Origin: Tubulanus polymorphus
Taxonomy: Eukaryota > Animalia > Nemertea
Assembly: GCF_964204645.1 (NCBI RefSeq)
Contig: NC_134034.1
Coordinates: 4,374,814 to 4,438,813 of the forward strand
DNA: 64,000 bases
Direction: 5' to 3'
In this document: piece after piece, positions 5,598 to 52,252 of the stretch
How positions within the stretch are numbered: position 1 is the first letter of the stretch
How the letters are laid out: each line of letters starts with the position of its first letter
Notes under the pieces: model-generated
Databases searched by the model: none
Seen by the model: only the letters and a program-made list of their open reading frames with translations
Told to the model about the DNA's origin: nothing
Made by a program: the position numbers and the translations under genes

Positions 5598-5754
5598 CCA
5601 GTAGGCCAGTCGTCCAGTCAGCCAGTCGGCCGGTCGCCCGGTCGCCCGGTCGCCCAGTCATCCGGTCATCCAGTCGGCCGGTCGTCCAGTCTACCAGTCA
5701 TCCAGTCAGCCGGTCGTCCAGTCATCCAGTCGGCCAGTCCTCCAGTCATCCAGT
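5598..5754 (-). repeat. Right subterminal tandem array (ATCCAGTC units), inverse of 1279-1736
   Basis: Reverse complement of the left array unit. Confidence 0.92.
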
Positions 5755-6742
5755 ATACCATGTAAATAATGAAGAACCGAATCACTACCAACCTATCGAA
5801 TATGTTCCTACACCCTTGCACTATTACTACGTATTCAACACTTGGGCCTATAGGCCCCCTATCATTAGATAGGTTTAGAATTTACATTTTTTATGAAACC
5901 CCTGGAACAAATCCTGGATCCGCACCTGTGCAGTTGTGTGTGAATACTGCAATATAGTAAATGGCTTCATGGAGATCGTGTCAATAGAAAAGGGCACTCT
6001 TACAAAGTCGCTGCAGTTGACCGTGAATTTGGCTTAGCACGGGCAGTGAATGGCATTCAATTTGGTTCAGCAGTGATATAATCAATGAACCCTGTACAGT
6101 GCACTGCTGCGCTTAACACTAACGACAGGCAAAATCTAAATTCTAAATCTTTAAAAATAAGGAGTAGGCCTATAGCGAAATCTTTATGATTTACTAAGAG
6201 TACGTATTTACTGACGTTTAATTTTGGTACTGGATTAAACATACGCCATCATGTAAATTTTGGAAAGTCCATATTAAGAATTTCGTTTCTTGTTATGACT
6301 GTTCGATTCAAATAGATTCATTAATATCGTTCTACCACTCGTTATCTGTGTCGCTCATATCGCGTGTATAATAGTTAATTTACGCTCAAATCGTAGATTT
6401 GGGCTCCACAATATTCAGAATTAAATTCAATCAGATCAATGGACACAGGTACGTAGGCTTAATTCAGGCGCTTGCCATAAAGAATGTGGTTCAAGTCCGA
6501 TATGCGGCACTAAAGTGCAATGTGTAGGGTTACTTTTTGAGTAAATCGGGGATTAAGAAATGGAGGAGGGGTTTCTCGGCTGACGGAGTGCTTTATCGGC
6601 AACCCCGTTCCGTTCGGTCTGTTTTGGATTTCGGAACAATGTTTCATAATCTATTGCAACAAAAACTTTCAATAAACCTTAAATTTTCGGCGCTTCTTCT
6701 AGGCATCAAATTATTTACTTTTGATTAAGTCTTGTTTTTCAG

Positions 6743-9700: not shown

Positions 9701-12700
9701 TGAGCTCCACGATTTTCTTCGCGCGTTCAGGTCGTACTCGCAGCGGTTTAGCGGCTATGAGAGGCTCTGTTTCAGACATTACCCGTTCGTAACGGGCTGG
9801 CGGAAAGCGGATAGTACGTATGGATTTATCGAATCGGGAACGACCGATCAAATGAGGACGGCACGGAATCTGGGCATATCGCATATCGTTGTGTTTTCGA
9901 GAACGCCAAGCGCGTATCATCCGTTCGTCGCGGTAAATATAATGAGATTTAAGAGGTTGTGCTTTACGCGAACTATCATTCATCGTTCAAAGCCAAACCA
10001 CGATTTAACGATTTAAGTCTGTGAACGTTGTCAATGTAGGTGCTATTTAATATATTTCAGGCAACTATGTTTGACATGAACTCATATCTTTATCGCTGGC
10101 TTTATCTGACGTATGTGAGTATTGCTTTTCGTACATAATGAGAACTATTCGATTTACATTAGGTTGATGCCTCTCAAAATATCACTTGGATGATTTATTA
10201 TGCCAATAAGTTATGCATCCTCATCGGCATCAAGCATGTTTTATGACGCTTTTGACTGCAGGCGTAAAGTGATTCAAAAGCGCCAGCATAAACACATCTG
10301 GTCGAATAACGACTATTCGATGCGAAGCCATTACCGGTACATGTATTTTAGGCCATTTTGAATTACTCGAATGAATGCAATTTTTCTGGGAATAATGGAT
10401 GTCAAACAGAGAAAAATATTGAAATATATTTTCACATTTTCATTTAGAGCCACATATTTTACATTATCCCCGGCAGGGATTCGAACCTGATTGCATTGAG
10501 ACTTGCCAGGGTACGAAACCCTTCCATTCCTTGTCATTATTAGCCAATCAGATAACCCATTTTATTTTTGCCCGGGTTTTCCGTTTTTAGTTCTTCCGTA
10601 AAAATTTCCTCGGTGATTATACAACGAGCAATCTATTGGTGCTGCAGGTTTTCGTGCGGCAAACCTGCGCACCTGGTCTAGTGTGGCAAGGTTCCGTACC
10701 GTGGTGAGTCTCGATGCAATCAGGTTCGAATCCCTGCCAAGGGGCATTAAATTATGTGCCTGTGAGTAATACAATAATAAGTAATTTGAAAACAAGTTTT
10801 GATAATTTTTTCCCTTTGCTCTTCGACTTTTCCCTGTATCATGTTCTTCAAGTAATTGGTAAAAACACATAATGCTTTTCATTACTTCCGATGGCGTAAT
10901 CAGCATCACAAACCATGTTTCGTTTTTTACATTAATTACTTATATGCGTTATTCAAGGGGCTGCGAATCTAGGTGCACTGCGTCATCGGTATAGGTGTTT
11001 CAAAGTAAATGTGAATGAATATTAATATTGGCGTTTATCTTGCAATCAAATATCTTTTTATATTCAAATATGTTTTACGCCTTTTTAACGATTAATTTAT
11101 TAGCTATCAGTGTATTGTGTGCTTGTTTGTGCAGTACGTCATCAATGGGGCTAGACTGGATGTCGGTCAATTCAATTCAATTGATATATTCAAATTATTT
11201 TATTCATTGTGGATACGATGTATTATCAAGCAATAGGTATACGTTAATTTCCAATGCTTCACTAAAATTTAAGTTGGCTTTCTTATTTCTTTCTCAGGAG
11301 AACGTACCGTACGATATTTTCGCCAGGGGCAAAATCTCCCAAACGAATGCATCGCTGTCATTCCTCGATATGTTCAATGGAAATCTAGTAAACACGTATA
11401 ACCTGACCAGATTATCAACAGACCACAAGAGTCGTGATTATGGATTGTTCGATACGCTTCTTACTTTGAATAAATTTGCCGAGCGACAAATTGAAAGAAG
11501 ATCGGAACAGTTTTTTGTAAGTGAGGGGTTCACTATCGTCATTTATATATCACTATATATCATATACCTATCGACAAAACATAACGAGTTAACTTTATCT
11601 TCATTGACAACCTTCTTATTCTCAATGACTTCAATAATTCAGTGAATTTATGATCAGATACCAACGACGAACTTCTCATTCCCAATATCTTCAATGATTC
11701 AGTGAAATGATAATTACGTAATGTAGTTACTATTGAAAGCCTTCTCATCTACAGTAACTTCAACACTTCAGTAGATTTTATAATGGGTAACTGATTTTCA
11801 ATTTGATTCGATTCTAGGATTCGAAAGTCGAAGTTGATGGTTTAAGCGGTCGTTTCAACTTCTCGCTGAAGATATGTCGTGAGGCGCCCGCCGTTCAAGT
11901 TTGTGAGACGAACGCGGATAGAAATAGAACTCGGTGTAAAATGACTGGGTTAAAGGTAAGAAAAGCTTTTTGGCCAGTGTCAGCAGCAGTTGCCGATGGA
12001 AAGTTTGGTTAAAGCGAGAATTTCCTTTGACCAACGTAACCTTCTTTTCGTTTACGAAATACAAGTTTCTCATGTTATCAGCTTCAACGACTCTCGAATT
12101 CAGATAGATATCGTTGTTTTCAGTCACGCGGTACTGTATCCACCTGTCGTCCGCTCGTCCAAGCAGGTTTCCGTGCCCTATCCCTTAAACCGTTGAAGTT
12201 ATATTCCTAAAATTGGACCATATATGCGTTGCTCTAAGTTTGCGTGCTGTAGGTCAATAGTCAAGGTCACTGTAGTGTAGATTATCTAAATCATTTTTCA
12301 TATCTGGGTTTTAACTCATAAACGGTTCGAGTAAACTACGGGGGATTTGATGGATGGGCTACCCTAGGGACAGTGGATAACCGATAAAGTATTGAATACT
12401 GTCAACGTCACAAGAAGCCAATTCTATTGACATACATCGTTGTCTTTTAATTTTTAGTTCACGGATTGGAAGAAACTCGACAAAGGAAAACCGATTAGTC
12501 CTATTCCAGGTCCGGGCGTGAAAGTATATACTGGTAACATGGGCCGGATTATCTTAAGACTGGTCAGTAAAAGTCTCATGGTCGAGTGACGCAGTTTTCT
12601 TCAAACCAGTTGCAATAAGACGATTTCCAAGCCGTGCCGTATTATACGTACATGTAGTTCATTTACATATTATCTATTCGAATAGGAGCCCCCCTTCTTT

Positions 12701-35300: not shown

Positions 35301-36285
35301 CACTACTACCATCAGTGTGGTGGTAGTGTGGTACTTGGTCTGTTTGAGCCACTCGAGGGTTAGACCTTGGAGTAATCATTCAAATGATTACTCCAAGGTT
35401 AGACATTCACAAGTCTATCATAGGTTAATTTAGAACAGTGTAGCAAATAATCATTTCTTGAACTCTTATTATGCAGATCTTGGAATCCACAAATGCCAGT
35501 GTGCAAAGTGAATGTTCGCAGGTTTTCAGAGTCAAGAGACTTATCGAAAAGCTTCTGATGACTTTACTGAAACGGATTTGCGAACCGCCTGCATTTATGC
35601 AGGAACCGATTACGATGAAGGTAGATTAAACTAGTTCATACAACATCAACGCAAATAAGGATCTATTTATTGGATCTGCAACCCAAGAAGTCGTAGCAAA
35701 CGGTGTGAGAACGGCTACAAAGGATACATTCTACAAAGATGTTGTGAAATCCAACCAGGCCATATTAGATTACATCAAACTCAGGATAAATCCTGATCAT
35801 CAACCGTTATGGAAACATGCTGAAGTAAGTTCAACACATAACCTAGGCCCGATAATTCATAGTTTTTATTTTGTTTTAAAACATTTCAGGAGACGGAAGG
35901 TTTGCATTGAAATAAAAAAGATTAAAATATTTGTGGTACCGGTATCGTTATCACAGACCCCTCAGCTCTGTCTGAACCAGGATTTCCCTTTGTCTTATCT
36001 GATCCATCCCAAACCACTAATTATGGCTATTCATGGCTGTTATATCATGTTGTACCAATTATTTGCAGTTAGCGGATATATCACTCAGGCAGAACAAAAA
36101 GTATGCTGATATGAAATTCTTCGTGGACAAGTTTCCATGCATTACAGACGGACAGAATATTGATGCTATTGAAGAAGAATTTATTGATTATACAACGCTG
36201 AGCGATGGTGATCTCCCAGCAAATCTATTCTTACTAACAGCAACCAATGGATAGATTGTTCACCGACCTGCTGAGGAACAATAAA

Positions 36286-36474
36286 AGTAATAGGGGAATG
36301 TGGCTTCCATACCAAAGGTCGAAAGGTCGAGCTCGTAAAAAATGAAAATAACAATAATTTCCAGTTGAATTAGTCGCGCACACTTCTAATTCAACTAGAA
36401 ATTATTGTTATTTTCATTTTTTTACTCACTCACCCTTTCAACCTTTGATATGAAAGCCACATTCCCCTATTACT
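36286..36474. repeat. Terminal palindrome inside the left TIR
   Basis: Arm 36286-36373, loop TCGCGCACACTT, then a complementary arm ending CCCCTATTACT at 36474. Confidence 0.95.
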
Positions 36475-36677
36475 CTTAAAATATTCATTTACATGGATAA
36501 AATATATATGAATAACATATAAAAGTAATTAGAAAAGTGGGGTTTCAAGCCAGAGATCGGAGGTCGAGCTCTTATAGCATAGATATATAGATATATTTTA
36601 AACATATTTCAATATTTATATTTGTATGAGTTAGATTTTTAAACATTAAAAGTGTCAGTAAAGTGTGATTGAAATAA

Positions 36678-36846
<169 letters not shown>

Positions 36847-36894
36847 GAATAACATATAAATGAATAAAATATAAAATCTATTTAGTAAAAAAAT

Positions 36895-37560
36895 ATGTAT
36901 AATAAATGGAACCAGAAACCACAAACTATCAATATTACAAATAACACCGGCGTTATAAACATATACTACAAGAAGTGTTCTAAATGTGAATAAGATAAAT
37001 TAGCTATAACAGAATTTAATAAGCGTTAGATTAGCAAAGATGGTTTTCAATATTGCTGTAAAACTTGTATTAAACTATATGCCAAACAATACCGAGAAGA
37101 TAATAGAGAAGCTTATAATGATTATATGACAGAATATATGAGAGAAAGATATCAAACTGATTTTAATTTTAAAGTGAAACAATGCTTAAGATCTAGATTA
37201 ACACAATTATTCAACAAAGAAACACATTCAGAAACACTATCTAATTTGTTGGGTTGTACAAATGAATTTCTCAAATCATGGATGATATATCAATTCGACG
37301 ATAAAATGAATATAGATAATTATGGTGAATACTTTCATATTGATCATGTGTTGCCGATTTCTAAATTTGACATGAGTGATGATTATAATAAGAAGCTAAT
37401 ATGGAACTGGAGAAATTTAAGGCCTTTAGAAAAGAAGGAAAACATAATTAAATCTAATAAACTAGATTTACAGTTATATTTAGATCAAGTGGTTCAAGCA
37501 AAGACATTTGTTGAATTATGGAATAGTGATCCAAATAGTATTAGCCTAAAGAGATACTAA
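36895..37560 (+). pseudogene. HNH-family endonuclease (large-DNA-virus type) with N-terminal Zn ribbon
   Basis: KKCSKC...YCCKTC, then LRSRL...LLGCT...NYGEYFHIDHVLPIS.FD...NWRNLRPL...ENIIKSNK; two in-frame stops upstream of 37126. Confidence 0.8.
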
Positions 37561-37611
37561 TATCATTTTATAATACTGATAATATTTTTTTCGCTTTTTT
37601 CTCTAATATAA

Positions 37612-38190
37612 ATGTCAAAGAAATCGGGTAAGAATAATAGCGATATTGAAAAACGTTAGATGATTTAGGTATTAGTGATGATAAGGATATTCCGACCAAA
37701 ATAATATTCAAGTTAATAACAATATAGATTATGAATACTATTTATATTGTAAACACCATCTTGAGTTACTTATTGCTGGCGGGAAATCTACGGAGTTTTT
37801 AAATAGAATCATTACTTTTCAAGAACTAGACTCTATGAAACCAGATAAAGTCATAAAATATTTCAAGATTTATGAAGAAGCTAGATTAGCTAGAGTAAAT
37901 GATTCTATTTCAGATGGTATTGTCAAATGTAATTCAAAATTATGTAAACGGTTAATACCAATTGATGATGAAAATAAATTATATAGTGATTTGAAAAATG
38001 ACTTCTTAGTTATGACTGAATTACAAAAAAGGGTTGGTTACGCTTCATTTCAATTAGGATCGGTTATGACATTAATTTCTACTGGTGTCATCTGCGAACA
38101 TCAAACCTATGGAATATAAATCAGGTAAGAACGAAACAGATGTACTACAACCAAACGGCGAAACAGAAAATGAATCAGAACAAAAATTAA
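37612..38190 (+). pseudogene. Viral hypothetical protein, frameshifted
   Basis: Starts at TAAATG (37612); includes ORF 37835-38119; no recognised domain. Confidence 0.55.
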
Positions 38191-38199
38191 CTAAAATAA

Positions 38200-38595
38200 A
38201 TGAGTGATGGTATTGCCGTACGGCACCCACACAGTGACGTTAAGAAAAAGGTTAGATCTGAAAAACAAATTAAATGGGCAAGAGAATTAGGTAAAAGATC
38301 TGCAGAATTAAAAAAAGCTAAGAAAAAGAAATTAACTGATATAAATGAATCACAGACTTTATCTGATATTGATTCAAATAACAATCCATCTAATTCTTAT
38401 AATGCTGGAAGAAATAATTACTTATATATTACAATTGGGTTAATCACAATTATTATATTATCCGGTGTAATATATAAATCAAAATTAAAATCTGATGATA
38501 AAGATGATTCCAATGATGATAAACCTATTATACCAGAAAATAAGTCAAATCATAAAGCCATTGAAACTAAATCTAAATTATTATTAATGGATTAA
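38200..38595 (+). CDS. Basic single-TM viral protein
   Basis: Intact 131-aa ORF with basic N-terminus (RSEKQIKWARELG) and a hydrophobic span YLYITIGLITIIILSGVIY. Confidence 0.75.
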   Translation: MSDGIAVRHPHSDVKKKVRSEKQIKWARELGKRSAELKKAKKKKLTDINESQTLSDIDSNNNPSNSYNAGRNNYLYITIGLITIIILSGVIYKSKLKSDDKDDSNDDKPIIPENKSNHKAIETKSKLLLMD

Positions 38596-38601
38596 AATAA
38601 G

Positions 38602-39696
38602 ATGAAAAAAGAACAATATTTAAGAGATTTATATTATAACCCAGAAAGTGAAGTATCATATTCTAACGTTTCAGAATTATGGAGTAAAAGTAAATCTGAT
38701 AAAGAAAATGGTAATATAAAATATAGTGAATTAAAATCATGGTTACAAAATCAACCAACATATCAAATACACAAGAAAATGGATAAAACTTATTTAACAA
38801 GAAAAGTTATGGTTTCATATATCGATCAACAATGGCAAGCAAATTTAATTGACATGAAGAACTTAGAAGAACACAACAAAGGATATTTCTGGATATTAAA
38901 TGTTATAGATGTATTATAGATGTATTCAGTAGATACGCATGGTCAATTCCAATCAAAAATAAAACTGGTATAGAAGTAACAAATGATTTTAAATCAATTT
39001 TTAAAGAAGCTATTCCAGATAAGATACAATTTGATGAAGGTAAAGAATTTTATAACAAACATTTTAAAAAACTATTATCTGATAACGATGTAGAATATTT
39101 TTAAACACATTCAGATAAAAAAGCATCTATTATAGAAAGATTTAATAAAACATTGAAAACTAGAATGCGGAAATATTTTACTGCAAATGAAACATATAAA
39201 TATATCGATGTATTAGATGATTAAGTGAAAGATTATAATAATTCTAAACATAGTTCTATAAATATGAAACCTATACAAGCTAGAAAAGAAGATAATTCAG
39301 AAATAGTTTGGAATAATTTATACGGAGCATTTGTTACACATGATTTCGGTGAACCTAGATTTAAAATTGGACAACATGTTAGAATATCTAAATATAGAAA
39401 AACATTTTATAAGGGTTACACTCCAAATTTTACTGAAGAAATATTTAAAATCAAAAAGATAATATTAACTAAACCATTTGTTTATAAATAAGAAGATCTA
39501 AAAGATGAAGAAATATTAGGTTATTTCTATGAACAAGAATTATCACTTGTACCAAACCCAGATGAAATAGAATACAAAATAGAAAAAATATTGAAAACAA
39601 AAACTCTTAAAGGAAAAAAGTATTCTTTGGTGAAATATAAAGGATATGAAGATAAATTTAATGAATGGATTTTATCTAGTAAAATTAAAAGAATAA
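38602..39696 (+). pseudogene. Retroviral-like (rve) integrase with C-terminal chromodomain-like region
   Basis: YYNP, QWQANLIDM, IDVFSRYAW, IQFDEGKEF, ASIIERFNKTLK, YNNSKHSSINMKP, KGYTPNFTEEIF, VKYKGYEDKFNEWI; stops and a frameshift. Confidence 0.95.
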
Positions 39697-40302
39697 ATGA
39701 ATAAAGATTTATTTATATTTGAACCGCATAATATGTTAGTTACTGGAGTAACAAACTGCGGTAAAACACATTTCATATTAGATTTGTTAGAAACTATTTA
39801 TAAGAATCATTTTGATAATATAATATTATTCTGCCCTACTTATGAAATGAATAAAACATATAATAGAGATATAGTTAAGATAAAAAGGTTTATTATATTA
39901 GATCCTAAAACAGTAAAAGAAAATTTAGATAATTGTATAAAAATAGCATTAGATATTTATAAAGGATTAAATACATTATTCATTATAGATGATTGTGCTA
40001 ATTTACATGATTCAAAAGTTAGAGAAAGTGAGTTATGTTATCTAGCTTTCTCTGGGGGACATTTTGGGATAACAACATGGGTTTTAAATCAAAAATATAA
40101 TTCAATTGTTAAAGACTTTAGGGAGAATATAAGATTTTTAGTTTTATTCTACAATAAAGATAGAAAATCTATGCAACAATCATTGGAAGAAAATCAAATT
40201 ATACCTACTGAATTACATGATGAATATATGAATAAATTAAAGAAAGGTTCAAAATTATTACTGAGGCTTCAATTTCCCTATGAATATAAATTTATAAAAT
40301 AA
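39697..40302 (+). CDS. A32/FtsK-like DNA packaging ATPase
   Basis: Walker A GVTNCGKT, Walker B LFIIDD, SG(G)HFGIT...Q...REN. Confidence 0.93.
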   Translation: MNKDLFIFEPHNMLVTGVTNCGKTHFILDLLETIYKNHFDNIILFCPTYEMNKTYNRDIVKIKRFIILDPKTVKENLDNCIKIALDIYKGLNTLFIIDDCANLHDSKVRESELCYLAFSGGHFGITTWVLNQKYNSIVKDFRENIRFLVLFYNKDRKSMQQSLEENQIIPTELHDEYMNKLKKGSKLLLRLQFPYEYKFIK

Positions 40303-40344
40303 AATCCTAATTTGGAATATTATAGAAACTAATTTATATTTCTA

Positions 40345-40578
40345 TATACTAGACGTACGTAAGAATCCAAGATTCTTGCTAAGAAAGTAAGAAAGTAAGA
40401 ATTCTTGGATTCTTACTCGTACGTCTAGTACATAGATGTATAAATTATCAAATGAATTATATAAAAATGAATAAATTATATGTTTTCTCTTAATAAAAAT
40501 AAAAATACATTATATTATAACTATTTCTATACTTAGATTAATAGTTTTATGTTTTTAATTTTTTTGAAAATTATCATA

Positions 40579-40649
<71 letters not shown>

Positions 40650-40727
40650 TAGACGTACGAGTAAGAAAGTAAGATTTCTTGGATTCTTGGATTCTTACCA
40701 AGATTCTTACGTACGTCTAGTACATAG
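40345..40727. terminator. Two related palindromes between convergent viral transcription units (putative terminators)
   Basis: TACTAGACGTACG...CGTACGTCTAGTA at ~40347-40430 and ~40647-40722, separated by an AT-rich spacer and a (TA)n run. The function is inferred. Confidence 0.5.
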
Positions 40728-40750
40728 ATATAAAAATAGTTTTATTATAA

Positions 40751-41224
40751 TTATTCTAATTTTGTTTCTAATACATTTATAAAATCATCTCTGTTTATAT
40801 CTAATTCATCAAAAGTCTTAGGTAGATTTATTAATTTTAGTCGAGTCATCTTTGAATGATAATTAGTAGGTATATTAGCTTTTTCTCTTAATTTTTCTAA
40901 GTATTCATCAAAATCATCATTATCAAAATCAAATTGATATCCAAAATGTTTTATTAGATAACTTAAATCAATTTTTCCAAAATATAATAAAAAATAGATT
41001 TGTTCAGGATTATCTTCTGCATAAGCTAATAATTTATCAAATAACAACTTATAGAATATATAATATTGGTTAGTTTTAGGATTAAAATATTTGATATATT
41101 TCTCTGGGTTATTTAACAATGGTATCATACCCATTATTTTATAAACATTTATTAGATGTAATTTTGATTTATAATGAGTGTTTTCATCAACAGGTTCAAT
41201 TCTTTTATTACAATATTGGCACAT
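40751..41224 (-). CDS. Viral protein with N-terminal C2H2-type zinc finger
   Basis: MCQYC...HYKSKLH; intact 157-aa ORF. Confidence 0.7.
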   Translation of the reverse strand: MCQYCNKRIEPVDENTHYKSKLHLINVYKIMGMIPLLNNPEKYIKYFNPKTNQYYIFYKLLFDKLLAYAEDNPEQIYFLLYFGKIDLSYLIKHFGYQFDFDNDDFDEYLEKLREKANIPTNYHSKMTRLKLINLPKTFDELDINRDDFINVLETKLE

Positions 41225-41225
41225 T

Positions 41226-41947
41226 TTATTTCTTTCTATTTCTTCTAATTTCTTTTCATGTTCTTCTAACTTCCTTTCATTTTCGATATGCGCTTGAGAT
41301 TTTTTATGTTTAGAAAAATTACTTTTAGAAATATCTAAATCACAAATGTTACAATGTTTTTTAGAATCATCAATTGTTTCATTATCATAAGTTTCAATTA
41401 TATAAACATTATCTGTTATATTATCTATGGTATCATTTGTTTCAATTGTATTAACATTATCTATGATATTATCTATTATATTATTACCAGATATATTATT
41501 ATCATTATTATTCTTTTCTTTTTCTATATGTTTCTTTGATTTCTTATGTGATGCCCAATTTTTATATGATATATATTTCTTACATACATCACAATATTTT
41601 TGATTATAATAATCTTTTTTTTTGATTCAATATCATATGTAGAGGGTATATTATAAGATGTAGATGCTGTTACATCTTCTATTTTAGTTTCAATATTATT
41701 ACTATCTTCTATTTTAGTTTCAATATTATCTTCTATTTTATATTTAATATCATTCTTATCTTCTATTTCAGGTTCAATATTATTTTCTTTTTTTTGTTTC
41801 AATATTCTTATCTATTTTACTTATTCTATATTTGAATTGATTAAAGTATTCTCCAAAATACTTACTGTATTCATCATAAGGTAATATATAATATATATCT
41901 GATATCATTTCACTTGGAGTTTGTATTTCATATATTCCACCTTCCAT
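41226..41947 (-). pseudogene. Viral protein with C2H2 zinc fingers and acidic/Asn repeats, frameshifted
   Basis: Starts MEGGIYEIQTP at TAAATG (41947); IETKIED repeats; CDVC...HIRNQ and CNIC...HKKSQAH pieces. Confidence 0.6.
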
Positions 41948-41979
41948 TTAATATAAGATTTTTTATTAAAGTTAAAATT

Positions 41980-43155
41980 TTAATATTTCATAACTCCTTT
42001 TTTCTTTTTCATGAATAATTGTATTCCATCTTTAGTATTTTGTAGTTTTTTCTCAGAACCATGTAATGAATTATCCTCTGTTGTTCTAAAATCTAACCAT
42101 AATGCATATTTATTACCGGTATAATAATCAATTTGATTAATATTACAATTTTCAAATGATTTTACTTTTTCATTCATAAAATGTTTTCTAATTTCTGGCC
42201 ATTGATCTATCATTCTCATTCCTTGACGAAATATTTTATTTGCTATACCTTCAATTGTTATTTCTACTTTTGTTATTTCAGGATTAAAATAATTATCAAC
42301 ATTTATTGCACCATTAGTATATGTTGCAATGGTAAAAAATATTAATATACCTTTAATAGATCTTCTTGGGATGTTAACATTCTCATTAATTATTTCATCA
42401 TTTGCATAAATAGTTACAGTTTTAAATTTTTCAATATAATCATATAATAATGAAAATCCTTGGTTGTAATGAGTTTGAATTATGCTAGCAATATTTTCAT
42501 CAGTTACTGTATCATATTCTAAACATATATTCGATAATTCATAACCCATATCTTTAACAACGCTGGATAATACAATTTCATTTACAGGAGCAAATGTTAT
42601 TTCGAATATAATATCTTCTTGTATAACATATTTGTATAAAGGCGCATTATTATTTATCAATTCAAAGTCTAATGGAATTTTATATTTGCTTCCATAAATC
42701 TTTTTTATCAAATTATCTGTAGCATTAGTTACTACTGCATTATTAGCCTCAGATCTTAATTTATTTTGGTTTTCTGATTGGATGCCTTGAAATATCATAT
42801 TATTTCTATTTTCTTTTGTTAACCATAAATCTTTATAATGCATGAATAAATTATAATTATCTCATGAGAAAACTGTTTCTGGTCCAATCTTTACAGCTAA
42901 TTTTTTAATCAAATATCTCCCAACATTATCAACAACATAATTATTATTATTACCAGTTACTTTTATATCGGCTGATAAATAAATACTATTTGGAACATAA
43001 AAAGTATTTTGTGTTAATCGAGGAATTCTAACATATAAAGTTTCATCGGGATTAATATTAGAAGGGTCATGAGTAATTATATGATGTGATCTTTCTGCTT
43101 TTATAGCATTAGATATTATATGATTCTTCGAAGGACTTATATAACTCCCACTCAT
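41980..43155 (-). pseudogene. Major capsid protein (double jelly-roll, Polinton/adintovirus type), frameshifted
   Basis: ITHDPSNINPDETLYVRIPRL, VVDNVGRYLIKK, YKDLWLT, KIPLDFE, NICLEYDTV, NPEITKVEITIEG, KYALWLDFRT..DNSLHG. Confidence 0.82.
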
Positions 43156-43184
43156 TTATTTAACAAAAAAATTAATTATTAATT

Positions 43185-44590
43185 TTATATCATATTCACT
43201 AACCCAAAAATAATTGCACTTACAACTGTAATTAAAAATAAAATGATATGTTCAGCAGCAAAGTTAAGAATATTCCCAGCAGATTTCAATATAAAACCAA
43301 CAATTGACGCAATAACTCCGGGTAAAGCTGCAGCAGATTTTGTAGATAGTTCCCATAAATATTTTGCTAATTTCTTTAAACCATCCTTAACTTTATCTTG
43401 TATAGAATTATTATCATTCGGGAGTTTATCCGGTTTATTGGGAGTAGGAGTAGATTTCAGTGAGTTTTATATAGCTAAACCTATTGTTGTAAATTCCATA
43501 GTTACAGCTGTTAGAATTGAAAGAATTGTGATTCCTTCACTCTCAAATAATAATTTTATTCTATCTTTCAATGATATTTCAGAATTTGGTTTGATTATTA
43601 AATCTTTAACAACAACTTTTAATCTATTAATACAATAATCATGTGATTTTTTTAATAATTTAATTTCTTCTTTCTGAAATTCTATGTTATATTCTAAATT
43701 ATCAATTTCTTTTTCGAAATATACATTTCTTTTTTTAAATTCAATTTCTTCAATAACTTTATTATCTCTATCTAATTTTAATTGTTCTGATTCTTTTCTT
43801 GATTTAAATAATTTATCTTCTAAAGTTCGAATTTTAAAATCTCTTAACTTTTATCATGCGCAAATTTATCAGCTTTATTTTGTATACTAATAATTTCTCT
43901 AATTGCTTTATCAGAAAATATATTTAAATCTTCTAATTCTTGTTTTGTTGCATCAAGTAATCTATTTGGTAAAAGTTTTTCAGTTTGAACTCCTCTTGAA
44001 TTAGGTTTACTAGTTTTGGAAGTTATATTCTGTTCAGAAGTTGTTTCTGTTTCTAAATTATTATCGATTGTTTCAAATAATTCATTAATTCTTTGTTTAA
44101 ATACTCTTTCATTTTTAATAATTTCTTCTTGTGTTACATCTTCTATTTCATTACTATTTCTTATTCTTTTAATTCTAGATAGGTCTAACTTAAGCAAAGT
44201 TGATTCTGCTAATATTTTGTTTTGTTTTTTATAAGAGATATCAATATAATAATCATCTTTCAAATGATAATAATATTCATCATCTAATGATTTTAATTCT
44301 CTTACTAAATATCTAGCACCTCTATCATTGATATTATATCCTGATCTTTCAAATATAGGTTTGAAATTATAAATATATTCATTATATTCTAAATTTAGTT
44401 TTACTAAATCTGGATTTTCATTTTCAGGATTTATTCTCGATCTAATTCTTCTATCAAATTCATCTGTTAATGGGCCTTTAGAACCACTATCTGCTAAATT
44501 AGAATTATATGCTGATTCATCATCATTATCAATATTAGTTTCTGCATCATTATAATCATCATCAATATATCCTTCATTATTAATTCCCAT
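43185..44590 (-). pseudogene. Coiled-coil protein with long hydrophobic/amphipathic C-terminus (putative membrane-active virion protein)
   Basis: ORF 43844-44590 continues after a frameshift into LKDRIKLLFESEGITILSILTAV...AAALPGVIASIVGFILKSAG...HIILFLITVV. Confidence 0.65.
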
Positions 44591-44600
44591 TTCTCCGATT

Positions 44601-45085
44601 TCATAATCTTCTACACCTTCTGAGATTAATATTATTATCCAATTCCTTAAAATATTTAGATCCGGGTAAAGGACATTCTAATTCATTTAATATTATTCTG
44701 ATTTGAAAATATGTGTGAAATCTAAATATTGTGTGAATTAATTTTAAATCAGAATAATTCAAATTTTTATCTAAGTTATTCAAATGATCATTCCAACTTA
44801 TACCGCAACCAGTTGTTGCACAATAAACAGCAAAATTTAATTGATTCTGCCAATATTTCATATTAGATTTTACTTTATATATATGATATTCATCTCGAGT
44901 AAAAGTAACTTCATATGTATTAAATATATTTTAGAAATAAAAAACTGTGATTCAGTAACATAAATTTCTAAATTAGTTAATGAATTTAAAACTAAATTTT
45001 TATATGTAATATTTTTGTTAAAATCTATTGCAGGAATATTATATTTGATTGATTTATTATATTGCAAAGCTTTTGGAAACCCCTT
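44601..45085 (-). pseudogene. Conserved Polinton-like-virus hypothetical protein (YWQNQLNFAVYCATTGCGIS)
   Basis: Two ORF pieces 44870-45067 and 44601-44861; the start codon appears mutated (TAAAAG for TAAATG at 45085). Confidence 0.65.
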
Positions 45086-45116
45086 TTATATAATAAGAAA
45101 ATTAATAATTTATTAA

Positions 45117-45523
45117 TTATTTTAATAATTTATCTTGTTCTTCAACTGTTATATTACCATTTAAACTTATTATATAATCTAGTGTATTCTTCAATTTATT
45201 AATTTCTTTTATATTAGTTTTAATTTTTTCTTTATTACTTTTTATATTTAATTTTGAACTTATGCAGGTTAATACACTTGATGATAATCCTAACACACCA
45301 ATTGATATAGCTACTGAATATTGCTAGAAATGATATTACAGAACTAATTGTAACCGAACCACTGATAATAAGATAATATATAATTTTACTTTTTAAATAT
45401 TTTTTTCTTTTTTATCTTTAAGTCACTTTCAAATTGTAATATTCGTTTTTCTAAATATATTTTTAATTTAGTTTTATTTATATCATGAGGAATAATATTA
45501 ACACCATCAACTTCATCATCCAT
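45117..45523 (-). pseudogene. Small two-TM viral protein
   Basis: MDDEVDGVNIIPHD..., hydrophobic spans IIYYLISGSVTISSVI and ISIGVLGLSSSVL, ends DYIISLNGNITVEEQDKLLK; frameshifts. Confidence 0.6.
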
Positions 45524-45588
45524 TTATTTAGAAAAAAATTACTAATTAGTAAATTTATAAGCAACAAATATAACAATAACTGTTCCCC

Positions 45589-45942
45589 CTAAATTCCAAT
45601 TTTACTTGGGGTATAATAATCTGATATTGTAGGTTTATGTAGATGTAATTTTTCTTTATTGGTTACTGCGTTATATAAACTCATTGCATCATCAACTGAT
45701 TGAAAATCTCTATGTGAAATCTTCTGATTATATAATTCCTTGTTAATATAATCCATATAGTTTTGTCTTTTTTCTCTGTATTCTTCTGCAGCTTTATTAT
45801 ATTTTTCTAATGCTAAGTTATGTCTTTTTTGTTCTGTTAATGAACCATTTTTATCAATATGTTTAAATAAATAACCACCACCAGTAAATGCTAAAGCGTT
45901 AACTTTTGCTGATCCTAAAATAGTTATAATTGCAGAAGCCAT
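45589..45942 (-). CDS. Viral protein with hydrophobic N-terminus and coiled coil
   Basis: MASAIITILGSAKVNALAFTGGGYLF...EQKRHNLALEK; preceded by the conserved motif. Confidence 0.75.
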   Translation of the reverse strand: MASAIITILGSAKVNALAFTGGGYLFKHIDKNGSLTEQKRHNLALEKYNKAAEEYREKRQNYMDYINKELYNQKISHRDFQSVDDAMSLYNAVTNKEKLHLHKPTISDYYTPSKIGI

Positions 45943-45967
45943 TTATTTAGCAAAAAAAATTATGCAA

Positions 45968-46189
45968 TTATATGGGAGGAATATATTTTTGTTTTTCCAA
46001 ATAATCAAAAGTTAAATTAGATAAAGTAACTGCTAACGTTAATTTTAAAATATCATTTATATCAAATCTATCAACATCAACACTTCCCATTTTAAATACT
46101 TTTTTTAATACCATTGAATAACCAACAGTTCCAACTGATAGTAATGCTCCATTATATAATCCAGTTATTATCCACTTATTATCACTCAT
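45968..46189 (-). CDS. Small hydrophobic viral protein
   Basis: Intact 73-aa ORF with two hydrophobic segments; preceded by the conserved motif. Confidence 0.75.
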   Translation of the reverse strand: MSDNKWIITGLYNGALLSVGTVGYSMVLKKVFKMGSVDVDRFDINDILKLTLAVTLSNLTFDYLEKQKYIPPI

Positions 46190-46204
46190 TTATTTATAAA
46201 AAAA

Positions 46205-46532
46205 TTACTTTCTTCAAAATATTTAGTTATCTTATTTATGATTAATTCAACATTTATAGTATTATTAGGTTCATTTTCATATATTTCAGTTATTATTCTT
46301 TTAATATCATCAATTATAAAATCTTCATCTAATTCATAAAATCTTAAAGACTCGGTAATCTTTTCTACATTAAAGTTTCATTATCTATTGTTTTTTCATA
46401 CTCAAATGATGTTTCATTAGAAAATGCAATATTTTTAATATGTGTTATTACATCATTAATGTTAAATTTCATTTCTTTCTCATGTTTAAAATCAAATCCA
46501 AAACATATACTCGATCCAACAGTTATATTCAT
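46205..46532 (-). pseudogene. Viral hypothetical protein
   Basis: Starts MNITVGSSICFGF at the conserved motif; frameshift near 46380. Confidence 0.5.
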
Positions 46533-46548
46533 TTATATAGTGAAAAAA

Positions 46549-47055
46549 TTACTCTTTACATCTTATAATTACAGGAAAGTTATTCAAATCAATTAAATAA
46601 CCATTATGATTTCTAATTTCTAATTCAAAATTGTTAAATCGTGAAATACAAGGTATAAAATCACATTCTGTTAAATTATATATTATTTTCGTTCCGAATT
46701 GTTTAACATTTTGTAATGGTATAATATTTAATATACTAGAATTACAAGTTATATCTTTAGTTGCTTCAAAATTTTTTGTAGCATCAATTAAATCGCAATA
46801 AATATAAAAATGTGTGTTAGGTATTAAGTTTGGCGTAGCATCAATATTTGTGAAAGACCTGTCTGGAGGAATTCCTAACAGTTTAGCTATAGGTTTTTTA
46901 CCATAAATTTATTTTTTTCACTATTAGACAACCTTATCTTTATTCTATCAGAACTCTCACTTTTTAAAAATCTAATACTAAAACCGGAATTACTACCTAA
47001 TTTGTGCAAGGCTTTTTATTAATTTCTTGTTCTAATGTATCTAAAATTTCGTTAA
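46549..47055 (-). pseudogene. Minor capsid (penton-like) protein, 5' part deleted
   Basis: IAKLLG...FYIYCDLID...SSILNIIP...NNFELEIRNHNGYLIDLNNFPV, a typical single jelly-roll penton C-terminal pattern; not in the ORF track. Confidence 0.72.
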
Positions 47056-50000
47056 ACATTTCGTGATCTTCTGATCTTAAACATTTCATCTTATGTTTTC
47101 TAACTTCTTCATTGAATATACAATTGATATAATCTTTGAAATGAATATTCTTTTCTACTACACTTTTGGTTATTCCTTTTAACTTTTTAGCTTCATGTTC
47201 TTTAGTTTTATATGAATACATTTTTGATCTAATACCAATGAATTCAATCATTTCTTCACCGCCTAATTCATTCTTAAACTTCCCGGGTCGCTTTTTATTA
47301 TCATTGCTAAACAATTCATGATTTTTAGGATAGTTACTAAAATCAAAATGATGTTTTAATGTTTCTAAATCATCAGTTATGTTATTAGTTTTTATCTTTA
47401 ATATGTAAGAATCTGTATCAAAATATAATATTTCTATATGTTTTTCTCCAAAATGAGGTTGTAATACATTATAATAGAATTCATACATCAATAGCTTTGA
47501 TATTTCTAAAACTGAAGCACCAACATAGATTGGTTTATTAAATTTCATAGAAGTTCTTCTCATTTTAACTGCAGCTAAATTTTCATCAAATATTCTGTTA
47601 CCTATAAACTTAGGATATGTTTGTAAATGTCTAATTCTTTTACCATTACTAACTAACTCAATACCATTTCTATTTCTAATATTTTCACAAGTCTTACCAT
47701 AGAATGCATTGTTCATTAACTTAAAGAAATCTTTTTCGAAATCAGTTTTAGCTTTAGTTCTCTGTTTGGTGTTAAAATCTATATATTTTTCTAACCATTT
47801 AGATTGACTAAATGAAATATATCTATGTACTTTTTTAAATACCATTCCTTGATTCAAATAAAACTTTAACATTCTATAATGTTTTACATAATTATATTTA
47901 TCTTCTTGAGTTACCATTAACTTTTCTGTATGAATATGATTTTCGGGTTTAATTCTTTTTTGATAATTTGATAATTCTTCATGAGTTACAGTTTTATGTT
48001 CGGGACAGTATGCTAGATTTCTAGTTTTAAATTTAATATGGTCAGGATATTCTAAATCTACTACAAAGAAGTAACCAGTATCTGAATAATCTGCAATATG
48101 TAGGATTCTTTTCTTCCAATCAAATTTATCATTATTTTCATGTTGTAAAACTTCACTTATTTCAAATACTCCATAAGGTTGTGGTTCCATCATTGCCCAT
48201 CCATATAAATTATTTGCATCTATATATAATAACTTATATCCAGGGTTATCATTTACATTGAAATATCTATCCCCTAATACACCTGAAACTCCTCCTCTTA
48301 TACATTTTTCAAATAATAATAATTGATCTATATTTGTTAACAAATCCATTTTTATATCTGTAAATTTTAAACCACAATCCCAAGTTAATCCTGGACTAGA
48401 ATAACAATGACAAGGATCAATGTTAAAATATTTTAGGTTTACATCTCTAAACCTTTCGAATATATCCGATAATAATAATACATCTGATTTTAAATATAAA
48501 TCTACTAATTGTCCATGATTTTTCATTCCAAAATGATACCAAATATTCAATGTTCTATTATAGACTTCATCTTTAACATGTTCATTTTTTAATTCATCAT
48601 AAAATTGTTCTTTTAATAATTCAGTTATATTGAAATCATTATGTGATATATAAAAACTATATGGTATTGCTCCTTTATACCTCATTAATTGAAAATCATC
48701 ATTATTTGGATAGTGTTGTTTTAATATTTTTAATTCATCATCAACTAATGATTTTGATAAATTATCTAATGAACTATTTAAAAATCTATATGAATCTATA
48801 AATCTTAGGCAACCAAATTGGAATGATATATAATTCTCAGATGTTCTAGCTAACATTTTTAATTTATAAGTTGGTATTTTATCTTTTGATCTATTTGAAT
48901 TTAATCTTTCCATTTCATTATTAATTTCTTCTATTTTATGACATAACTGTTTGATGAATAAATGTGCATCATATCCTGATAGATTATGAAATATAACTGG
49001 AACAAAATTCATTTTCTTTGCTTGCAAATTACAATTCTCATGCGCAGCGCCTCTAAACTTTCCGTTCAAATGATCATGGTCTCTTACTTTTTTAACTTTA
49101 TAATTAAATATCTTTTCACAATAATAACATTTACCTGAAAACACAAATTCTTCTTTATCTTCTTCTGTCATAATCATTTTTTTATTTGTATTCAATAATT
49201 TACTAAATCTTATTTCATATTCAATTAATAAGTCACAAAAATGATTGATAACATTTTAATTTCTATAATGATAATATTCACTTTCAATTAGTTTTGGATA
49301 ATCAGATTTAATATATAACCCGAAAGCAGCAGCTGATTGATGAATCTTTTTAATTGTATTTGTTTTTGGTGGTTCATCTGAAAAATCATTTTCATTAGAA
49401 TTTAATTTCTCTCTTTTATAATATATTTCTTTTCTATCTTGATCAGTTAATTCTTTATTTAATGATTCAAAATCTCCATATATAACAAATGGTACTTTAT
49501 TTTTGTAATCATATTTTTTGAATTCTAATATTTATCCTTTTCATTTGGTGAAACTAATTTACAATAATCATGATTATCACATAATTGTTTATGATTTAAT
49601 AATGTACTTTCATTACTGAATCTATGTAAACATTTTCTACATAGATCAATTTTACGATGATGATCACTTTCTGTTCTAAAGAATAAATCGATTTGTTTAA
49701 TCCACATATAATGATTTTCATAATATAATATATCTACAACATCATTTGAATCATAATCTTTTGATAGGTATAAAGGTTCTAATGTAAAATGTTTTATATT
49801 GATGCCTTTTGTTTTTGGTAATTTGATTAAATCAAATACTTTTATTCTTAAATTATTATCTCTTTCTATTTTTTGGATATTTTTAATTCTAAATGGATAC
49901 TTATCTATCTTATAATTATTTTCAAATTGTTTATAATTTGTTAATCTAAAACTATGTGTAATATCTTCTGTTTGATGTGAGCAACTTATAATTGTCCATA

Positions 50001-50910
50001 GAAAATATTTATCATCAAAATTTTGTACATTTATAACAGCATTAGTTTTAAATGGTAGTTTAATATAACTTGATGCTTCAATATCTGGTTCTTTATAATA
50101 TGATACATTATTTTCATCTATTGGTTTTGATTTAGTTAACTTATTATATTTTGTGTTAGACACATGTAAAGTCTGATGAAATATTATTTCATCAAATATT
50201 AAACCAGATCCTTCAAAATATTTCTCTTCTATTTTAGTTTTTACTTCATTATAACATTTATCTAATTTATCATCTATATGTTGTTTAGATATAATATGTT
50301 GTGAATGAGAATTTATATTATATATTGTTTAATCTTCAGATTTTATAAATTTAACCATAGAAGATATACTAATTTTAGGGTATTCAACATCAGTGATTAT
50401 TTTTATAATATTTTTCATATTTTCTAAATGTTTTTTATTTTCTTCTAAAGTTTTTCCTTTATGAAATTTAAACTCAATAGCAGCTGGACCAATATCACTT
50501 TTAACTGCTTTTTTATTATCTAATGAATTAATATAATTTCTTACATCTTCCATGTATGGTCTTTTATTGTTTAATTTATTTCTTATTCTTTTAATTGTCT
50601 TAAGTTTCTTATCATTGTCATTATCAAAATAATCCTCACCTAAAATATCATTATTCATATTTCTAATATGGCTTTTAGATTTTAAATGTTCATTATAATA
50701 TCTTTTATCACTGAATGATTGATTACATGTATCACATTTGTATGTTTCTTTTTCATTCTTTAATTCATCTAATTTAGTTTCTAACATATCATCTTCATAT
50801 TCTAATTTCAATTTATTCTCTAAATGAGTTTTGGTTTTATTGTGTCTTGATTTTTGGGATTTATCTATATTGATTTTACATGTTGAACAGTAGTACTTAT
50901 TTGTTTCCAT
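47056..50910 (-). pseudogene. Protein-primed family B DNA polymerase (pPolB), disrupted
   Basis: N-terminal zinc fingers; PFVIYGDFES (exo I), VRDHDH...AHENCN insert, FHNLSGYDAH (exo II), YIDANNLYG, KLMNNAFYGK, YFDTDS, KLKGI. Several frameshifts and the C-terminal end is missing. Confidence 0.96.
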
Positions 50911-51208
50911 TTTAATACTAAAAATTTTTAATTTTTAAATTGATTTTACACATTTTATTCATTTATATTTTATTCATTTATATGTTATTCATGTATATAT
51001 ATGAATTATTTCAATCACACTTTACTAACACTTTTTATGTTTAAAAATCTAACTCATACAAATATAAATATTGAAATAAGTTTAAAATATATCTATATAT
51101 CTATTCTATAAGAGCTCGACCTCCGACCTCTGACTTGAAACCCCACTTTTCTAATTACTTTTATATGTTATTCATATATATTTTATCCATCTAAATGAAT
51201 ATTTTAAG

Positions 51209-51395
51209 AGTAATAGGGGAATGTGGCTTTCATATCAACGTTGAAAGGGTGAGTGAGTAAAAAATGAAAATAACAATAATTTCTAGTTGAATTAGGAGTG
51301 TGCGCGACTAATTCAACTGGAAATTATTGTTATTTTCATTTTTTACGAGCTCGACCTTTCGCCCTTTGGTATGAAAGCCACATTCGCCTATTATT
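51209..51395. repeat. Terminal palindrome inside the right TIR
   Basis: AGTAATAGGGG at 51209 through CGCCTATTATT at 51395; mirror of 36286-36474. Confidence 0.95.
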
Positions 51396-52252
51396 AATAA
51401 AGAAAGATGTCTCAGCTTCTTGACATTACAGGATCTAAAAGGGAATTACATAGCATTGTTAATATTGTAGTATCCCAAAATGTTCACAATAGTCAAATAT
51501 CATGTTTGTTACAGGTAATAAAAATACCCCTTTATTCTTTATTCTACAGGTTCAAGTTCCTTCCAAGAGTAATGGTCACAATCCTCTTGTTTCCTGTCAG
51601 TAATGCCTGCTGTGAACGAGTGTTTAGCACAATTAGAAAGAACAAGACAGATTTCCAATTCTGTCTTTCACCGAAAACTCTCATCTGCTTTGAGTCCTTG
51701 ATGATCTTGAAGATACGTGGTAGAGCCTGTCACCTGAATTGTCACAGTGGCAGCCTTTTGAACAGCTGCAAATCTTCAACCAGGCAGTCATTGCAAAAAT
51801 AACTTTCTTAACCGGAATGTTTTGAGAGACATGTTTTATCCTGTTAATATGATTGTTCTCATATTAAGTAGTTTAAGATGATATTCTCTGTTGGTTAACA
51901 AGTTTTTTTAGTATTATTGAGTGAATCACGATGTTCACTGTTTTTGTTAGTTTTCATTTTTATCATATTTTTAGCATGACAATCAAACGATCTAATCAGA
52001 CGATGTAACAGTTATTTTCACGTGTTGCTACAATCAAAAGTGTAAAATATAGTCATTTATTTGGTTGTAAGATTTACGTTTTTGTTCCTGGTAGTACTGA
52101 ATAGGATAGGACTTGGATTTATAATATCTCAACACTTCATTGATTGTTGACTGATTATTGACTGTTCAAATACCTGGTATATATGATATTTTGGTTAGCC
52201 AGAGTTACTTCCTGCATCATACTTTATCTAGAATTGATGATAAATTTTCCTT

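What the first reader, a model, noticed from the sequence alone, without database searches (positions are those of the whole stretch)
36286..36474. Each terminus of the virus is itself a ~190-bp palindrome
Seen: the outer ~88 bp of each TIR is repeated in inverted orientation immediately inside (36286-36474 and 51209-51395) around the loop TCGCGCACAC, so the AGTAATAGGGG end occurs four times. Known: Polinton TIRs usually start with short tandem AGT-type repeats for protein priming; long fold-back termini are typical of parvo- and poxviruses. Inference: the hairpins could allow self-priming or resolution-type replication, provide internal second origins or integrase sites, or let each end move as an independent ~190-bp mini-element.
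Basis: partly seen in the sequence, partly recalled or inferred. Interest (0 to 1): 0.72.

Follow-up and report, generated by a model that had tools for sequence, protein, structure and literature searches.

The report
Strand-biased hairpin ends of a Polinton
Both ends of a 15-kb virus-like Polinton element are 189-base fold-back sequences, shared by related copies in the same species, whose odd mismatches all favour folding of the strand that ends in the free 3' end, so they likely act as a folded cap and restart signal on single-stranded DNA during the element's copying, which has not been tested.

Summary
A degenerate 15.1-kb Polinton (36286-51395, 6-bp TSD, pPolB with OTU domain, integrase, ATPase, capsid) starts and ends with a 189/187-bp palindrome that pairs right up to the terminus. 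It is neither an assembly artefact nor a MITE. Both ends share the same 8 arm mismatches. Raw reads show roughly 200-280-fold flank depth over the hairpin tip, covarying stem pairs, and a sister subfamily with a different, shorter stem. All 8 shared mismatches are G·T or G·A on the 3'-ending strand. On that strand the "loop" closes through tandem G·A pairs, and five natural tip variants keep this. No flip/flop and no abundant solo unit was seen. Best reading (0.5): a selected 3'-strand ssDNA cap and local origin for protein-primed restart, working like Streptomyces telomere hairpins. Rivals are self-priming, an outward RNA hairpin, and neutral arm copying. Terminal palindromes are already in print for Halocafeteria virophages and a PLV, mostly without pPolB. 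This scan also noted hairpin Polinton ends on other DNA. Verdict: new variant of a known kind.

The parts
36280..36285 (.). left 6-bp target-site duplication (AATAAA)
   Evidence: identical to 51396-51401; both flanks are parts of a hAT-transposase relic (right: PF05699 E 7e-5; left: by translation only)
36286..36373 (+). left outer arm (true terminus)
36374..36385 (.). left 12-nt centre; on the minus (3'-ending) strand a predicted tandem G·A-closed tip (this copy departs from the right end at one letter)
   Evidence: tip variants table 5c
36386..36474 (-). left inner arm, inverted copy of the terminus
36475..36523 (.). A/T-rich spacer joined to the inner arm; its first ~25 bases are among the most deeply covered TIR parts in related copies
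   Evidence: depth about 1980 at 36475-36485
36524..36574 (+). third, degenerate direct copy of the terminal motif (includes GGTCGAGCTC); low depth, so subfamily-specific or diverged
   Evidence: 36 of 52 columns identical; depth 80-230 over most of it
36286..36724 (+). left TIR (aligned part; a (TA)n expansion follows at about 36684-36843)
   Evidence: 94% to 50961-51393 over 437 columns
38602..39704 (+). retroviral-type integrase with chromodomain, in pieces
   Evidence: PF00665 E 2.6e-6 (below curated cut-off), PF00385 E 4.8e-6
39697..40302 (+). A32-type packaging ATPase
   Evidence: PF04665 E 5e-10
40309..40762 (.). central inverted repeat where the two gene blocks converge: two ~85-bp hairpins around a (TA)n run; little or no strand bias (control)
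41980..43155 (-). major capsid protein, in pieces
   Evidence: 36% over 302 aa to P0134, which carries PF16903 above cut-off
46997..50910 (-). protein-primed DNA polymerase gene (Zn fingers, OTU domain, EndoVII/HNH-like insert, PolB), broken by stops and a frameshift; starts just inside the right TIR
   Evidence: PF03175 E 3e-13, PF02945 E 4e-5; tblastn with P0121; OTU fold Z 7.6, rmsd 3.1, 99 aligned
50961..51395 (-). right TIR
51209..51295 (+). right inner arm
51296..51307 (+). right 12-nt centre; on the plus (3'-ending) strand GAGTGTGCGCGA
51308..51395 (-). right outer arm (true terminus)
51396..51401 (.). right 6-bp target-site duplication

Best explanation
Each end of this Polinton is an old, family-wide palindrome whose mismatches favour folding of the 3'-ending strand, and it likely serves as a folded cap and local double-stranded origin on the displaced or excised single strand, from which the element's terminal-protein-primed polymerase would restart. 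Shown: the palindrome, its pairing flush to the terminus, its presence in hundreds of related TIRs, covarying stem pairs, and G·T/G·A-only shared mismatches on the 3'-ending strand. Inferred: (1) the fold is under selection; (2) the folded molecule is single-stranded DNA, not RNA; (3) the 5' end is capped by a terminal protein and the 3' end by the hairpin, which explains the strand bias; (4) folding rebuilds a paired AGTAAT end without a 15-kb panhandle; (5) the tandem G·A elements in stem and tip are read by a protein, perhaps the polymerase's N-terminal zinc fingers; (6) TIR-to-TIR copying spreads the arm mismatches to both ends in one fixed orientation.
For: 8 of 8 arm mismatches shared by both ends are G·T (5) or G·A (3) on the 3'-ending strand, and C·A or C·T on the other strand (binomial p 0.004; about 0.03 if adjacent ones count as 5 events). 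The 3' strand folds 11.0 and 9.6 kcal/mol better with DNA parameters, while the two central hairpins differ by 1.9 and 0.2. Two of the stem G·A pairs are tandem 5'-GA/5'-GA, and the right-end centre begins and ends with GA on the 3' strand. In one search table 5c, 9 of the 12 rows shown (of 47; 65 reads) come from a sister subfamily with a different, shorter stem. Its five tip variants all keep the two G·A pairs. The next pair is G-C or G·T and the one after is T·G, T-A or C-G on the 3' strand (read by eye). Mirror pairs covary in reads: 36361/36398 (41%/46%), 36362/36397 (42% T-A vs 60% C-G), 36364/36395 (40%/27%), 36310/36450 (34%/31%). The polymerase has the OTU domain of TP-vOTU-pPolB enzymes (architecture from bioRxiv 10.1101/2024.03.18.585575, passages). 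Precedent: Streptomyces 3' overhangs fold into G:A-closed hairpins that are bound by Tap before TP-primed synthesis (PMC4513846, passages).
Against: No function was tested, and no free or single-stranded form was observed. The mismatch count is small and clustered. G·U wobble and tandem G·A are equally typical of RNA, and RNA parameters give the same bias. Reads are unphased, and reads far from the tip can be laid on either arm, so the distal covarying pairs are weak. Arm-to-arm copying alone also yields covariation. Two of the G·T sites could be CpG decay. Most Polintons manage without such hairpins: none like it was seen at 76 ends of 38 distant loci, many of which are not true termini, and the 493-bp TIR of L141 has none. 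The terminal-protein domain itself was not identified.
Confidence: 0.5

Rival explanations
1. Self-priming: the paired 3'-OH is extended directly into the genome, as in parvoviruses, and the closed end is later opened by a nick, perhaps by the EndoVII/HNH-like insert of pPolB or by the integrase, in a way that keeps one orientation.
For: The geometry is a primer-template junction flush with the last base, on the favoured strand. The nuclease insert has an intact-looking motif (PF02945). The terminus AGTAAT is not a perfect tandem repeat like the vertebrate (AGT)2 or (AG)3 motifs (PMC8097293 section 7). The same model was proposed for Halocafeteria elements.
Against: No flip/flop: both ends have the same orientation, and 784 reads vs 5 join the expected vs opposite arm type to the spacer (only the best-supported rows are shown). 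No Rep/HUH family hit in the ORFs scanned. The nuclease motif is present in 47 of 47 aligned homologues, so it is not specific to hairpin-ended elements. The OTU domain implies protein priming. Caveat (recalled, not confirmed): the left end of some parvoviruses keeps a single orientation.
Confidence: 0.15
2. The selected fold is RNA: an outward transcript from the TIR promoter region has the 3'-strand sequence and forms a long hairpin (decoy, small-RNA precursor or terminator).
For: G·U wobble and tandem G·A are RNA hallmarks. The 3'-sense strand folds 23-25 kcal/mol better with RNA parameters. Weak Rfam matches all lie on that strand.
Against: All 7 Rfam matches are far below gathering score and are generic hairpins. 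Pairing runs exactly to the DNA terminus. The tip variants imply a 2-nt turn, which is more typical of DNA mini-hairpins (recalled). No RNA run was available (one search listed none).
Confidence: 0.15
3. Neutral relic: an ancient fold-back duplication of the end, refreshed by occasional arm-to-arm template switching and spread by TIR homogenisation, with no function.
For: Template switching gives covarying arms without selection. Centre deletions and one perfect fold-back joint are seen in reads (table 5). Stem length varies among subfamilies.
Against: It does not predict a strand bias, G·A tandems, or a tip kept while the neighbouring stem is replaced. Deamination of displaced strands would mostly hit 5' ends and so give the opposite bias (inference).
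Confidence: 0.15
4. The 189-bp unit is an independent MITE-like element, or offers a second internal integrase site.
For: It carries two inverted copies of the integrase-type end, 189 bp apart.
Against: No TSD of its own and no solo copy in 64 kb. Depth is unchanged across the inner end (1962 vs 1983), and none of the 6 best-supported of 153 loose-end rows lies there. Outer-arm depth is at most about twice that of the first internal ORF, as expected for two TIRs per element.
Confidence: 0.04
5. Assembly artefact (fold-back chimera).
For: Fold-back chimeras exist; L119 looks like one.
Against: The arms are only about 88% alike, with the same 8 mismatches at both ends. Independent raw reads and contigs span the tip.
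Confidence: 0.01

Closest known systems
Terminal palindromes of Halocafeteria seosinensis virophages (subtypes 1, 2, 5, 6) and PLV subtype 4 (bioRxiv 10.64898/2026.07.28.741278; section 7 and passages read)
   Same: Palindrome inside the TIR, next to the TSD, in an integrated virus of the same broad group; hairpin priming proposed, untested.
   Different: There it is 52 nt in subtype 5, preferentially in elements without pPolB, and in a protist. Here it is 189 bp in a pPolB/OTU Polinton. The text I read does not mention strand-biased G·T/G·A mismatches or a covarying tip.
Polintons/Mavericks/adintoviruses (PMC8097293 section 7 and passages; PMC8502044 passages; PMC4196379 passages for the racket model)
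   Same: Size, TIRs, 6-bp TSD, AGT start, two gene blocks pointing to the centre, pPolB-OTU, integrase, ATPase, capsid.
   Different: The terminus is AGTAAT, not a perfect tandem repeat, and it carries a long terminal palindrome. 'hairpin' and 'palindrom' occur 0 times in the main text of PMC8502044; PMC8097293 was not searched for those words.
Streptomyces typical telomeres with Tap/Tpg (PMC4513846, passages)
   Same: Linear replicon, 5' terminal protein, 3' single strand folded into hairpins closed by sheared G:A pairs, terminal sequence able to pair with an internal copy.
   Different: Several short hairpins rather than one 88-bp stem; internal origin with end patching; unrelated proteins. 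A functional analogy, not membership.
Parvovirus/AAV terminal hairpins and poxvirus flip-flop telomeres (search listings only; bocavirus passages; mechanism recalled)
   Same: Terminal fold-back of similar length with fixed mismatches, and a 3' end paired flush.
   Different: No Rep/NS1 found, no flip/flop seen, integrase-type ends with TSD, protein-primed polymerase.
Adenovirus/PRD1 panhandle origin (PMC11886824, passages)
   Same: A displaced strand must regain a paired end before protein-primed restart.
   Different: There the pairing is between the two ends of the genome; here each 3' end could do it locally.

Membership tests
Polinton/Maverick | TIRs of some hundred bp on a 13-25 kb element | tested here: met
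   15.1 kb, 437 columns at 94%
Polinton/Maverick | 6-bp TSD | tested here: met
   AATAAA on both sides
Polinton/Maverick | protein-primed PolB | tested here: met
   PF03175 E 3e-13, above cut-off
Polinton/Maverick | vOTU domain in the pPolB N-terminus | tested here: met
   top rows are all OTU domains, best Z 7.6, rmsd 3.1, 99 aligned; Foldseek had no hit at E<=0.001 but its top rows are OTU as well; catalytic columns conserved in 46 and 47 of 48 rows
Polinton/Maverick | terminal-protein domain | not tested
   region present by homology to P0121 but not modelled whole
Polinton/Maverick | RVE integrase | tested here: met
   fragment hits PF00665 E 2.6e-6 (28.1 bits, under the 32.6 cut-off), followed by a chromodomain
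Polinton/Maverick | packaging ATPase and major capsid protein | tested here: met
   PF04665; 36% to PF16903-bearing P0134
Polinton/Maverick | Ulp1/adenain maturation protease | tested here: inconclusive
   no Pfam hit in the ORF pieces scanned; the copy is degenerate and not all pieces were scanned
Polinton/Maverick | short terminal tandem repeat | tested here: inconclusive
   AGTAAT is one letter off (AGT)2; the motif is known to vary
Rolling-hairpin/terminal-resolution ends (parvovirus, poxvirus) | 3'-terminal hairpin paired to the last base | tested here: met
   left end
Rolling-hairpin/terminal-resolution ends (parvovirus, poxvirus) | flip/flop isomers | tested here: not met
   same orientation at both ends; 784 vs 5 reads; rare isomers are not excluded
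Rolling-hairpin/terminal-resolution ends (parvovirus, poxvirus) | Rep/NS1 nickase or resolvase | tested here: inconclusive
   no Rep hit; EndoVII-like insert present, but in 47 of 47 homologues
Rolling-hairpin/terminal-resolution ends (parvovirus, poxvirus) | covalently closed or snap-back free genomes | not testable with these tools
   needs extrachromosomal DNA
MITE / solo mini-element | own TSD | tested here: not met
MITE / solo mini-element | dispersed solo copies | tested here: inconclusive
Halocafeteria-type palindrome-ended virophage/PLV | palindrome within TIR next to TSD | tested here: met
Halocafeteria-type palindrome-ended virophage/PLV | non-pPolB replication genes (reported as a preference) | tested here: not met
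   the element encodes pPolB
Streptomyces-type telomere (works-like only) | 3'-strand hairpin with G:A closures | tested here: met
   by sequence only; sheared geometry is inferred
Streptomyces-type telomere (works-like only) | Tap/Tpg proteins and several short palindromes | tested here: not met
   one long stem; no such Pfam hits

The most novel reading that the evidence does not exclude
A family of pPolB Polintons uses parvovirus-like hairpin self-priming together with protein priming: the G·A-marked 3' hairpin primes second-strand synthesis on the excised single strand, and the polymerase's built-in EndoVII/HNH domain opens the closed end without flipping it. That would give a first function to this nuclease insert and a hybrid replication mode between adenoviruses and parvoviruses.
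Probability: 0.15. Interest if true: 0.82.

Novelty: new variant of a known kind. Interest (0 to 1): 0.57.

Why it matters
How Polintons replicate has not been shown; the single-stranded 'racket' intermediate is a proposal, and even for PRD1 and adenovirus direct evidence of panhandles is described as lacking. A strand-biased, covarying terminal fold is a sequence fingerprint of a single-stranded stage. It identifies the strand and a ~190-nt substrate that can be probed in vitro. It also extends terminal palindromes from non-pPolB protist viruses to a pPolB Polinton and suggests convergence with Streptomyces and parvovirus 3' ends.

Tried and rejected
A 14-nt motif scan of viral contigs gave 117 stretches; all 80 listed had a single match each, were taken as chance and not examined. 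A gapped end-motif scan of metagenome contigs gave 3 GC-rich bacterial-type loci with no similarity to the element. A single-protein locus search found 0 relatives. Alignment-based searches found 22 viral and 16 genome loci at 26-43% pPolB identity; 3 of 76 locus ends had a self-inverted match of 50 or more columns, and none was a flush terminal hairpin. Rfam: 7 matches, none near gathering score. The sigma-70 scan is not meaningful here. The Atlas look-up gave no answer. The original 2006 Polinton paper was not held; its model is cited second-hand. Paper searches showed no paper, in the listings seen, on strand-biased hairpin ends in pPolB Polintons; subscription journals, Repbase reports and preprint supplements were not seen. 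Also read without bearing on the hairpin: PMC11296320, bioRxiv 2024.01.15.575659, 2022.07.28.501842 and 2023.08.22.554363 (passages; the last reports HNH inserts in pPolB2). Runs X1-X3 held only 0.28-0.45 of the words and come from one study; they may include the source sample.

Full report
Observation. The left end 36286-36474 and the right end 51209-51395 are imperfect palindromes with arms of 87-89 bp around a 12-nt centre. They fold at z -19.6 and -15.6, with 0 of 200 shuffles as stable. The left arms pair to the terminal base. The 11-mer AGTAATAGGGG occurs exactly three times, and the right outer end differs at two letters. A more degenerate direct copy of the end motif lies at 36524-36574.

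The element. It spans 36286-51395 between identical AATAAA hexamers inside a hAT-transposase relic. TIRs align over 437 columns at 94%. Genes: integrase and chromodomain pieces, A32 ATPase, major capsid protein by homology, and a polymerase gene starting just inside the right TIR, broken by stops and a frameshift. The polymerase has zinc fingers, an OTU-fold domain and an EndoVII-like insert. This is a degenerate Polinton. That the host is an animal is inferred from the adintovirus-like gene set and was not tested.

Not an artefact. The two arms of one end differ at 9-12 sites plus a gap, yet like arms of the two ends differ at only 4, and at 1 plus 2 gap columns. Eight arm mismatches are the same at both ends. 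The palindrome is therefore older than this insertion and was copied TIR to TIR (inference). Contigs of X1, X2 and X3 span the centre. Raw reads of an independent study (X4, about 12% of the run read) cover it at about 880 at likeness 90 and about 1150 at likeness 80, against 4-5 in the flank. That means some hundreds of related hairpins if the flank is single-copy, which is not known.

Not a mini-element. The unit has no TSD of its own and no solo copy in the window. Depth is 1962 over the last 11 bases of the inner arm and 1983 over the first 11 of the spacer, and none of the 6 loose-end rows shown (of 153) lies at the inner end. Outer-arm depth peaks near twice that of the first internal ORF.

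No flip/flop seen. Both ends have the same orientation. In reads, 2020 outer-type arms run out into low-agreement sequence (0.67-0.71), 784 reads join an inner-type arm to the spacer (0.81-0.89), and one listed joint of 5 reads links an outer-like arm to the inner end (15 of 29 joints shown). Rare isomers are not excluded.

Covariation. Of the 22 listed variant positions within the palindrome that I tabulated (40 rows shown over the whole stretch, 54 hidden), five mirror pairs vary on both sides in a complementary way: 36310/36450, 36324/36436, 36361/36398, 36362/36397 and 36364/36395. Two more restore a pair, two lie in the centre, and eight have no listed partner. The three pairs within 25 bases of the tip are the more reliable. 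Reads are unphased. Single reads in table 5c show a sister subfamily whose stem next to the tip has a different sequence and is shorter, yet is fully paired in most rows, around a 10-nt version of the same centre (9 of 12 rows shown, 65 reads, read by eye).

Strand bias. I checked this after reading scan note e1-10595815. All 8 shared mismatches are G·T (5) or G·A (3) on the strand whose 3' end is the terminus (p 0.004, or about 0.03 for 5 clustered events). The five substitutions private to one end are mixed: 2 G·T, 1 G·G, 1 C·C, 1 C·T. The 3' strand folds 11.0 and 9.6 kcal/mol better, while the two central hairpins, used as a control, differ by 1.9 and 0.2. Two stem G·A pairs form a tandem 5'-GA/5'-GA. 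On the 3' strand the right-end centre reads GAGTGTGCGCGA, which can close as G·A, A·G, G-C, T·G, G-C around a 2-nt turn. The five tip variants of the sister subfamily keep both G·A pairs and keep the next two positions pairable on the 3' strand; three of the five would have a C·A mismatch on the 5' strand. That tandem GA pairs are sheared and stable, and that 2-nt turns occur in DNA mini-hairpins, is recalled knowledge.

Mechanism. Protein-primed replicons displace a single strand whose 5' end carries the terminal protein and whose 3' end must regain a paired origin, usually drawn as a panhandle or, for Polintons, a racket. Here each 3' end can fold on its own inner arm. This would hide the 3' end and present a paired AGTAAT end with G·A landmarks. 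It matches how Streptomyces 3' overhangs, closed by sheared G:A pairs, are bound by Tap before terminal-protein priming. I give this 0.5. The same geometry allows self-priming (0.15), but no flip/flop or Rep was seen, and the EndoVII-like motif is in 47 of 47 homologues. An outward RNA hairpin (0.15) fits the mismatch classes equally and could not be tested, as no RNA run was listed. Neutral arm-to-arm copying (0.15) explains covariation but not the bias or the kept tip.

Known systems. A 2026 preprint reports palindromes within TIRs next to TSDs in Halocafeteria virophages and one PLV subtype, preferentially without pPolB, and proposes hairpin priming (supplements not seen). The adintovirus paper's main text has no 'hairpin' or 'palindrom'. 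None of 38 distant pPolB loci showed such an end, though few include true termini. This scan noted hairpin-ended Polintons or PLVs in three other genomes; those notes are unchecked leads, not support.

Verdict. A real, family-wide and probably selected terminal fold; a new variant of a known kind; function inferred, not shown. Interest 0.57.

Noticed in passing
window 40309-40762: Central inverted repeat where the two gene blocks converge: two related ~85-bp hairpins flanking a (TA)n run, with little or no strand bias. Possibly a two-way transcript 3'-end signal like the giant-virus hairpin rule (recalled), or a small inserted element.
   Followed up: partly
window 36500-36521, 36837-36873 (mirrored at 50963-50999, 51161-51182): A 22-bp direct repeat brackets a ~200-bp TIR module that holds the third copy of the end motif. 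Read joints skipping 197-280 bases show relatives without it, so the TIR is built from modules.
   Followed up: partly
window 36314-36335: The outer arm carries a tandem AAAGGTCG repeat followed by the palindrome GAGCTC. It resembles nuclear-receptor half-sites (recalled) and is the most deeply covered part of the TIR (about 3100).
   Followed up: no
window 36684-36843 and 40576-40645: (TA)n expansions, one in the left TIR only, each preceded by a similar TTGAAA..ATT.AT context.
   Followed up: no
window 37030-37560 (+): First left ORF has an HIDH...N motif suggestive of an HNH nuclease (by eye); no confident Pfam hit.
   Followed up: no
window 40751-41626 (-): ORF with several zinc-finger-like motifs resembling those at the polymerase N-terminus (by eye); a candidate end-binding protein.
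   Followed up: no
window 1202-1737 and 5581-5762: Two arrays of an 8-bp-period repeat in inverted orientation about 4 kb apart, possibly the subterminal repeats of another element.
   Followed up: no
L141 1-493 / 9332-9821: A 9.8-kb viral contig with pPolB and 493-bp TIRs, without a long terminal palindrome.
   Followed up: partly
L119 1-4316: Whole contig is a 95% fold-back palindrome, likely a sequencing chimera.
   Followed up: no
L143-L158: Sixteen contigs filed in prokaryote MAGs encode Polinton-type pPolB, likely misbinned viral or eukaryote DNA.
   Followed up: no
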